A DNA stretch of 64,000 nucleotides. Origin: Eledone cirrhosa. Its lineage: Eukaryota. The notes under the pieces are model-generated. The model was not told where the DNA came from and searched no databases. It saw nothing but the letters and a program-made list of their open reading frames with translations. Made by a program: the position numbers and the translations under genes. Of the stretch, positions 49,905 through 50,325 are shown piece after piece. Within the stretch, counting starts at the first letter, position 1, and every line of letters starts with the position of its first letter. The stretch spans positions 123,628,001 to 123,692,000 of the forward strand of contig OZ024743.1 of NCBI GenBank assembly GCA_964016885.1. Direction: 5' to 3'.

Positions 49905-50325
49905 TAAACAAATAACGAAACGAAATTAAATTTCGTTTCGTTTGTAACTCACTTTTGTATGACTGACGCTTAAACAATTAAGTTAAAAATGTACATCCAC
50001 ATATGTATACTGAAATACTAGTATGCATATGAATACACACACGTGTACATATGTAGATGTACCGAGTTTTTCACTGGACACTTTACTGTGAGTGTCCAGC
50101 TATTCTGTATGTAAACACACAGACAAACTGGTTTTTAGAGTCATACTGGTTTTCGAGGAAACACCTTTCCTCTATTCTCCAGAAAGCCAGACAGGAATAT
50201 TGGACTAGTTTCGATGTTGTTACATCTCATCAGCAATATTTACCTATCTTCCGGCCTTTCTAGAGAATCGTAAAAGCACATATCGTTATATGCTTTTTCT
50301 ATGAAAATTAGTAGTGGGCAGACTA
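49905..50325 (-). mobile_element. Diverged solo copy of the retrozyme-like unit, (TA)n-flanked
   Basis: Collinear with 45480-45903, with many substitutions and the same 3' terminus. Confidence 0.9.
50196..50240 (-). ncRNA. Type I hammerhead ribozyme in the diverged copy
   Basis: Differs from the 45774 copy only in loop II (AATA to AACA). Confidence 0.92.

What the first reader, a model, noticed from the sequence alone, without database searches (positions are those of the whole stretch)
49905..50325. Diverged copy preserves the ribozyme and shows compensatory change in an extended stem I
Seen: this copy has many substitutions, yet the 45-nt HHR differs only in loop II. Stem I extends as a long bulged helix (ttctccagag..gcc..gatggg pairing with cctgtc.tggc.ctctggagaa). 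Here one G-C pair becomes A-U on both strands (ttctctagaaag / ctttctggagaa) and a G-U becomes A-U. Inference: the RNA fold was under selection in the active lineages, and the bulged stem I may give the loop I/loop II tertiary contact known from fast natural HHRs.
Basis: partly seen in the sequence, partly recalled or inferred. Interest (0 to 1): 0.75.

Follow-up and report, generated by a model that had tools for sequence, protein, structure and literature searches.

The report
Young hammerhead retrozyme copy, conserved fold

Summary
In detail: a type I hammerhead lies on the minus strand (cut site 50203/50202), and the G-C/A-U and G·U/A-U differences are real. The copy is not individually diverged: it has one private change and belongs to a young subfamily (31 exact copies of its 93-nt stem; 9,311 family cores; about 40,000 counting a sister family). 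It is a 421-of-465-nt, 5'-truncated non-LTR retrozyme inserted in (TA)n. The highlighted pair also occurs as G·U, the next pair as A·C, and within the family the hammerhead is no more conserved than the rest (7/45 vs 60/348 variable columns). Selection on the fold is shown elsewhere: against a 60%-identical sister family, 6 of 14 stem I/II pairs change on both sides, while loop II (UAANAA), U1.7 and the GGU bulge stay put. That fits the known loop I-II contact, which lies in the proximal bulge, not at the distal pair. Stem III is one pair plus palindromic CUAG, so cleavage likely needs a dimer. Two fixed 3' ends, inverted arms and array-wide A>G changes point to Penelope (Hydra) copying of an edited RNA. 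The scan found such elements before on other DNA of this genome. No activity was tested.

The parts
49906..50325 (-). 5'-truncated copy (about 421 of 465 nt) of a non-LTR retrozyme unit, family F1, subfamily B; single arm, flanked by (TA)n on both sides
50203..50233 (-). hammerhead core CUGAUGA / stem II with loop UAACAA / GAAA / one-pair stem III with palindromic CUAG / GUC; predicted cut between 50203 and 50202
   Evidence: Rfam HH9 model, E 7.5e-7, below gathering score
50194..50244 (-). proximal stem I (6 bp, 50239-50234 with 50202-50197), bulge UAA (50242-50240), U1.7 (50196), closing GG/CC; predicted site of the loop I-II contact
   Evidence: role from PMC11875169 and PMC4209133 passages
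49906..49976 (-). 3' tail between the two fixed insertion ends (site 1 about 49971-49976, site 2 about 49906); least variable block within the family
45480..46191 (-). separate insertion of subfamily A (469-bp unit): minus-strand arm, hammerhead at 45811-45781, ends at site 2 in (TA)n
46197..46692 (+). plus-strand arm of the same insertion, hammerhead at 46432-46462, octamer ATGCAAAT at 46332-46339, ends at site 1 in (TA)n

Best explanation
The stretch is a 5'-truncated, very young copy of a 465-bp repeat unit with a canonical type I hammerhead motif whose stems I and II covary between families, and it was likely inserted into (TA)n by a Hydra-clade Penelope-like element copying a self-cleaved, probably circular RNA. 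Steps: (1) tandem arrays are likely transcribed from an internal octamer-containing promoter (inferred); (2) adjacent hammerheads would pair their ACUAGU palindromes and cut at GUC/GUU/GUA as double hammerheads, helped by a U1.7-loop II contact (inferred from anatomy); (3) monomers would be ligated to circles (from other species) and are A-to-I edited (inferred from A>G bias); (4) a Penelope-type RT/endonuclease primes at two fixed internal sites about 70 nt apart and makes two opposed, 5'-truncated arms (ends shown; enzyme inferred). Selection acts only on templates that get copied. This copy lacks the octamer and a second hammerhead, so it is probably dead on arrival.
For: Copy number: 9,311 exact F1 cores, control 0; 3,345 GUC and 37,000 GUA/GUU cores, controls 1 and 16. 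Tandem periods 422-538 bp in 125 distinct monomers, two families ~60% identical with hairpins in the same order. Covariation: 96.2% of 448 cells paired, 6 of 14 pairs with two-sided change, slid controls 38-50%; tree-based 6 two-sided events vs null 1.5, 0 of 5000. GGU kept in 32 of 32 rows, U1.7 in 31 of 32, loop UAANAA in 31 of 32, none fixed by the search patterns. Shared variants keep pairs more often than private ones, 25 of 50 vs 52 of 192, P = 0.003; without A/G changes 11 of 29 vs 27 of 149, P = 0.025. Hammerhead strand folds more stably in 19 of 20 monomers. Ends: 118 of 124 arm 3' ends at two sites, 38 of 43 two-armed loci with one of each; a Hydra-type element has the same two-ended (TA)n footprint (clade traits). 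A>G makes 19 of 30 variants shared by all units of a locus (11 loci; T>C 1) vs 22 of 261 single-unit variants; 10 of 21 without the hyper-edited locus L126, P = 1e-5. Closing stem III in a monomer costs 5.9 kcal/mol; the palindrome duplex gives -4.8.
Against: No cleavage, transcript or circle was shown. Within F1 the hammerhead is not better conserved than the rest, and half of the shared variants (25 of 50) break a predicted pair. For A/G changes alone, shared and private variants keep pairs equally (14 of 21 vs 25 of 43, P = 0.59), so part of the apparent structure-keeping may be mutational. No convincing sequence match between the unit and the one Hydra 3' UTR tested (two short low-complexity hits); only one direct retrozyme-Hydra junction was seen (L279). 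In one preprint 8 of 9 predicted Xenopus retrozyme dimers did not cleave in vitro. The 32 aligned rows were hand-picked from the loci held (183 distinct haplotypes), and loci were found by patterns that require an intact core.
Confidence: 0.82

Rival explanations
1. Solo pseudo-LTR (pLTR) of an autonomous Penelope-like element: the unit is the terminal repeat of a coding element, left behind by 5' truncation, not a free retrozyme.
For: Insertion anatomy matches Penelope elements (partial tandems, inverted 5'-truncated copy, one-sided tail). A preprint derives Xenopus retrozymes from pLTRs. Penelope-type ORF hits lie in 31 of 301 sequences searched.
Against: Of 15 loci inspected, the coding pieces were separated by (TA)n or host DNA except one junction in mid-ORF. 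Long pure arrays exist (31 consecutive hammerheads at C1:5.74-5.75 Mb). Metazoan Penelope hammerheads are described as minimal, with long helix II; this one is canonical. The Hydra family examined has a different 3' UTR.
Confidence: 0.1
2. The paired changes in the distal stem come from mutation bias, not selection: A-to-I editing of the template turns A-U into G·U and A·C into G-C, transitions dominate, and three of four transition states of a purine-pyrimidine pair still pair. This concerns the distal stem, not the identity of the element.
For: Strong A>G bias among locus-wide variants; A/G is the commonest allele pair at paired columns (22 columns); no excess pair-keeping for A/G changes (P = 0.59); two-sided events in the distal stem not significant (353 of 5000).
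Against: With substitution types held fixed, distal changes still break fewer pairs than chance (0 of 7 internal, 76 of 5000; 2 of 14 on all branches, 8 of 5000), though on hand-picked rows and a structure taken from this copy. Transversion compensations in stem II (A-U/U-A, G-C/C-G) cannot come from editing.
Confidence: 0.35
3. A DNA-level satellite or hairpin element: hairpins are kept by template switching between inverted arms and arrays grow by unequal crossover; the hammerhead is an inert relic.
For: The unit is rich in hairpins (z = -8.84); arrays show variants shared by some units only (60 cases), so local duplication does occur.
Against: Dispersal over many contigs at 99-100% identity, fixed ends, strand-specific A>G, G·U-tolerant pairs and invariant unpaired core and loop bases across 40% divergence all point to an RNA stage.
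Confidence: 0.04

Closest known systems
Metazoan non-LTR retrozymes (Cervera and de la Pena 2020, PMC7229834; Introduction, mussel section, Discussion and passages read; supplement unreadable)
   Same: Canonical type I hammerhead in short non-coding tandem repeats, GC below 45% (32-39% here), highly self-paired predicted circle, coexistence with Penelope elements.
   Different: Unit 465-470 nt (sister family 422-538) vs about 170-400 nt there; RNA circles not shown here; the two-armed, two-ended insertion footprint and the A>G signal are not in the parts read.
Axolotl HHR_Amex1 / newt satellite 2 hammerhead (passages of PMC7229834; newt promoter known to me only from a passage and a reference title in PMC2220036)
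   Same: Helix III of one base pair capped by a palindromic tetraloop, conserved loop 1-2 contact, dimer-dependent cleavage expected; newt satellite has an snRNA-type promoter and 17 of 20 monomers here keep ATGCAAAT (octamer label recalled).
   Different: Different host and sequence; that paper says invertebrate retrozyme hammerheads mostly have a two-pair helix III and cleave well as monomers.
Schistosoma Sm-alpha and amniote HH9 type I hammerheads (PMC11875169 passages; Rfam RF02275)
   Same: 6-bp stem I, bulge, unpaired U1.7, 4-bp stem II with a 6-nt loop ending in A; full-length HH9 model match, E 7.5e-7.
   Different: Score 33.7 is below the gathering score of 52; stem III is far weaker.
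Hydra-clade Penelope-like elements (Craig et al., 10.1101/2021.04.23.441226; Hydra section and passages read)
   Same: (TA)n targets, partial tandems, inverted 5'-truncated arm, tail on one end.
   Different: No ORF in the unit; tail about 70 nt here vs 30-40 bp described for Naiads; no clear shared 3' sequence found.

Membership tests
Canonical type I hammerhead ribozyme | Core CUGANGA, GAAA, NUH with open stem I | tested here: met
Canonical type I hammerhead ribozyme | Helix I about 6 bp and helix II about 4 bp, supported by covariation | tested here: met
   6 of 14 pairs two-sided; 0 of 5000 null
Canonical type I hammerhead ribozyme | Conserved loop 1 / loop 2 bases (U1.7, terminal A of loop 2) | tested here: met
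   sequence level only: U1.7 31 of 32, loop II 31 of 32, GGU 32 of 32
Canonical type I hammerhead ribozyme | Tertiary contact formed and self-cleavage occurs | not testable with these tools
   needs a cleavage assay or a structure
Rfam hammerhead families | Score at or above the gathering threshold | tested here: not met
   0 hits at gathering in the window; HH9 33.7 vs 52 bits
Metazoan non-LTR retrozyme | Hammerhead in each unit of short non-coding tandem repeats, GC below 45% | tested here: met
   met by the family, while this copy itself is sub-monomeric
Metazoan non-LTR retrozyme | Unit of about 170-400 nt | tested here: inconclusive
   465-470 nt exceeds the 2020 range but lies within 51-972 bp of the 2026 preprint
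Metazoan non-LTR retrozyme | Highly self-paired monomer | tested here: met
   67-69% paired in 4 of 4 circular folds; z -8.84
Metazoan non-LTR retrozyme | Expressed as linear and circular monomer RNA | not testable with these tools
   no run on record as RNA; indirect A>G signal only
pLTR of an autonomous Penelope-like element | Unit flanks an RT + GIY-YIG ORF | tested here: inconclusive
   not seen in 15 inspected loci apart from one mid-ORF junction; no genome-wide screen
Penelope-type insertion | 5' truncation, inverted arm, one-sided tail, microsatellite target | tested here: met

The most novel reading that the evidence does not exclude
These arrays are direct DNA records of single A-to-I-edited RNA circles read round and round by a Hydra-clade Penelope reverse transcriptase from both sides of a break, so host RNA editing acts as a heritable mutagen that walks the retrozyme's helices through G·U and A·C states and produces apparent compensatory change in a ribozyme.
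Probability: 0.4. Interest if true: 0.65.

Novelty: new member of a known kind. Interest (0 to 1): 0.38.

Why it matters
As stated, the finding is expected for a known class: a working hammerhead retrozyme should keep its stems. The family is useful as a test bed. About 40,000 intact cores in two families give a natural mutational scan of the type I loop I-II contact; the one-pair stem III predicts dimer-only cleavage in an invertebrate; and the fixed ends plus array-wide A>G changes give genomic support for mobilisation by Penelope enzymes from a circular template, which the 2020 paper and the 2026 preprint propose but do not show in the parts read. It also warns that single transition-type 'compensatory' pairs in edited RNAs are weak evidence of selection.

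Tried and rejected
Rfam at gathering thresholds: nothing in the window. RNA runs: no RNA holder listed; four contig sets of unknown kind laid on the copy showed only the family's variants, uninformative on expression. Pfam found no fitting family for the Penelope-like ORF pieces (10 proteins); their Hydra label rests on motifs read by eye against a paper. One search returned nothing through a wrong spacer length (fixed). One search split the between-family branch at a midpoint root and undercounted two-sided changes (1); re-rooted (6). One search gave a weaker A>G result (7 of 13) with cruder unit handling; refined it. A pair of hammerheads 4.2 kb apart (L095/L096) proved to lie in a plain array, not around an ORF. 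Older decayed hammerheads with UGCA or UAUA in stem III were left out of the statistics because the pattern fixed their loop II. Locus L131 (nested insertions) was left out of the 80 groups. No covariance model was built and R-scape is not available; tree-based shuffles were used instead. Paper searches listed no paper describing octopod retrozymes or ADAR-edited retrozyme insertions; a giant squid genome paper counts 235 Hammerhead_1 hits (passage). The supplement of PMC7229834 could not be read and may list such elements. A sequence look-up in earlier findings showed nothing. That the host is an octopod is my recollection from a SINE in the window and was not tested.

Full report
Observation. 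The minus strand of 49906-50325 holds a type I hammerhead motif: CUGAUGA at 50233, a 14-nt stem II region, GAAA, then CUAG-U-C with the predicted cut at 50203/50202. Two more cores lie at 45811 (-) and 46432 (+) in a separate two-armed insertion, 89.6% identical. The 106-nt region folds with z = -5.45 and the whole copy with z = -8.84. Rfam gives no hit at gathering level but a full-length HH9 match at E 7.5e-7 with the same helix lengths.

The copy is young, not decayed. The own genome (3.0 Gb) holds many 99-100% matches (40 of 890 candidates scored); the copy has one private substitution and its 93-nt stem is found 31 times exactly. The other window copies belong to a second young subfamily. 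Exact family cores number 9,311 (control 0). Looser patterns give 3,345 GUC and 37,000 GUA/GUU cores (controls 1 and 16) and reveal a sister family F2, about 60% identical, with hairpins in the same order. Units are 463-471 bp in F1 apart from one 480-bp monomer not assigned here, and 422-538 bp in F2.

Covariation. On 32 hand-picked rows (18 F1, 14 F2) 96.2% of 448 cells pair and 6 of 14 pairs change on both sides, including transversions; slid controls pair 38-50%. On a tree, internal branches carry 6 two-sided changes against a null mean of 1.5 (0 of 5000); most sit on the single F1-F2 branch, one within F1. The base pair at the foot of stem II is U·U or C·A in all 14 F2 rows. Unpaired neighbours stay fixed: GGU in 32 of 32 rows, U1.7 in 31, loop UAANAA in 31, while the two bases after GGU vary freely among F1 lineages. 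An unpaired U1.7 pairing with the last A of loop II is the contact seen in the Schistosoma structure (passages of PMC11875169), and 6-bp helix I, 4-bp helix II and a short palindromic helix III define the canonical metazoan motif (PMC4209133 part 1 of 4). The contact is therefore likely, and lies in the proximal bulge.

In 18 F1 rows it is A-U 7, G-C 7, G·U 4; the next pair is A-U 13, G-C 2, G·U 2, A·C 1, the last being subfamily A. The tree resolves it as one-sided steps; two-sided events in the distal stem are not in excess (353 of 5000), though pair-keeping is (76 and 8 of 5000). Over 80 loci and 346 units, variants shared by three or more loci keep pairs in 25 of 50 cases vs 52 of 192 for private ones (P = 0.003); the excess vanishes for A/G changes (P = 0.59) and remains for others (P = 0.025). 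Within F1, shared-variable columns are 7 of 45 in the hammerhead, 14 of 57 in the distal stem and 60 of 348 elsewhere; 37.5% of 45-nt windows are at least as conserved. The seven fall at tolerated places (bulge, one wobble each in stem I, the covarying stem II pair, loop II, the cut-site base). Between families the hammerhead is the best-kept 51-column window (33 invariant vs 176 of 532 overall).

Stem III. One A-U pair closes palindromic CUAG in all 32 rows, but the search patterns required this. Closing it in a monomer costs 5.9 kcal/mol, and the ACUAGU duplex gives -4.8. The axolotl HHR_Amex1 with this anatomy cleaved 6% as a monomer and far better as a dimer (passages of PMC7229834). Dimer-dependent cleavage is inferred.

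How it spreads. 118 of 124 F1 arm 3' ends fall at two internal sites (about +227-232 and +297-301 from the cut), 106 of them into TA-rich sequence; 38 of 43 two-armed loci have one end of each kind; 5' ends scatter. This matches the Penelope anatomy described by Craig et al. (passages and Hydra section). The window holds three broken RT + C-terminal GIY-YIG elements with a CxCX5C linker, the Hydra trait, and one such family shows the same two-ended (TA)n footprint about 90 nt apart. One F2 copy is joined without TA to a 5'-truncated Hydra RT; other neighbours are nested in (TA)n. No clear shared 3' sequence was found, so the partner is inferred, not identified.

RNA template. This fits one edited monomer, probably a circle, copied repeatedly; amplification from one unit after insertion or gene conversion would also share variants. 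It also supplies a selection-free path to G·U and G-C states. The octamer ATGCAAAT (label recalled) is kept in 17 of 20 monomers; the finding's copy starts just after it and has one hammerhead only, so it is probably inert.

Comparison and verdict. The element meets the sequence-level features of metazoan non-LTR retrozymes (PMC7229834: Introduction, mussel section, Discussion read; preprint 10.64898/2026.07.22.740005, parts 1-3 of 5); expression, circles and cleavage are untested. Paper searches listed no description of this family, but one supplement could not be read. The scan has reported such two-armed, Penelope-type retrozymes on other DNA of this genome; those notes are leads, not support. 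Verdict: observation confirmed, interpretation partly supported, new member of a known kind, interest 0.38.

Noticed in passing
window 23298-25090 (+), 27361-29922 (-), 35309-37389 (-): Three broken Penelope-like elements with RT, CxCX5C linker and C-terminal GIY-YIG (Hydra-clade traits); no Pfam hit.
   Followed up: partly
window 26277-26315 (+), 63974-63934 (-), 20006-19960 (-), 94-67 (-): Hammerhead-like cores with long stem II; the first lies downstream of the + strand Penelope ORF and ends in (TA)n; relatives recur in other loci.
   Followed up: no
L279:1790-1830 (also L301): F2 retrozyme 3' end joined without a TA tract to a 5'-truncated Hydra-type RT; possible template switch.
   Followed up: partly
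L301-L330, 3' ends: Abundant Hydra-type family (2,833 candidates, 92-98% identical) with two alternative 3' ends; no canonical hammerhead in its 3' UTR, only a CAGAAGA...GAAA look-alike; its UTR begins with ATTTGCAT and GGTAAGTA, also seen in one F2 lineage.
   Followed up: partly
L126: One F1 insertion with nine A>G changes shared by its units, a likely hyper-edited template.
   Followed up: partly
L224, L229, L230, L240, L241, L248, L281-L287, L291: Old, decayed hammerhead families with different stem II and stem III loops UGCA, UAUA or UACA.
   Followed up: no
window 45755-45766 and 46192-46242: A 6-nt duplication in the distal stem I of one subfamily A unit and an 11-nt duplication near the inversion joint.
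   Followed up: no
L131: An A-like F1 insertion nested between the two arms of another F1 lineage's insertion.
   Followed up: no
L293:1-1818: Long open frame with a Tet_JBP oxygenase domain hit (E 1.3e-10) in a locus fetched for a hammerhead-like core.
   Followed up: no
window 61667-62133: Two tandem copies of a 211-bp repeat that I recall as an octopod SINE (name recalled, not tested).
   Followed up: no
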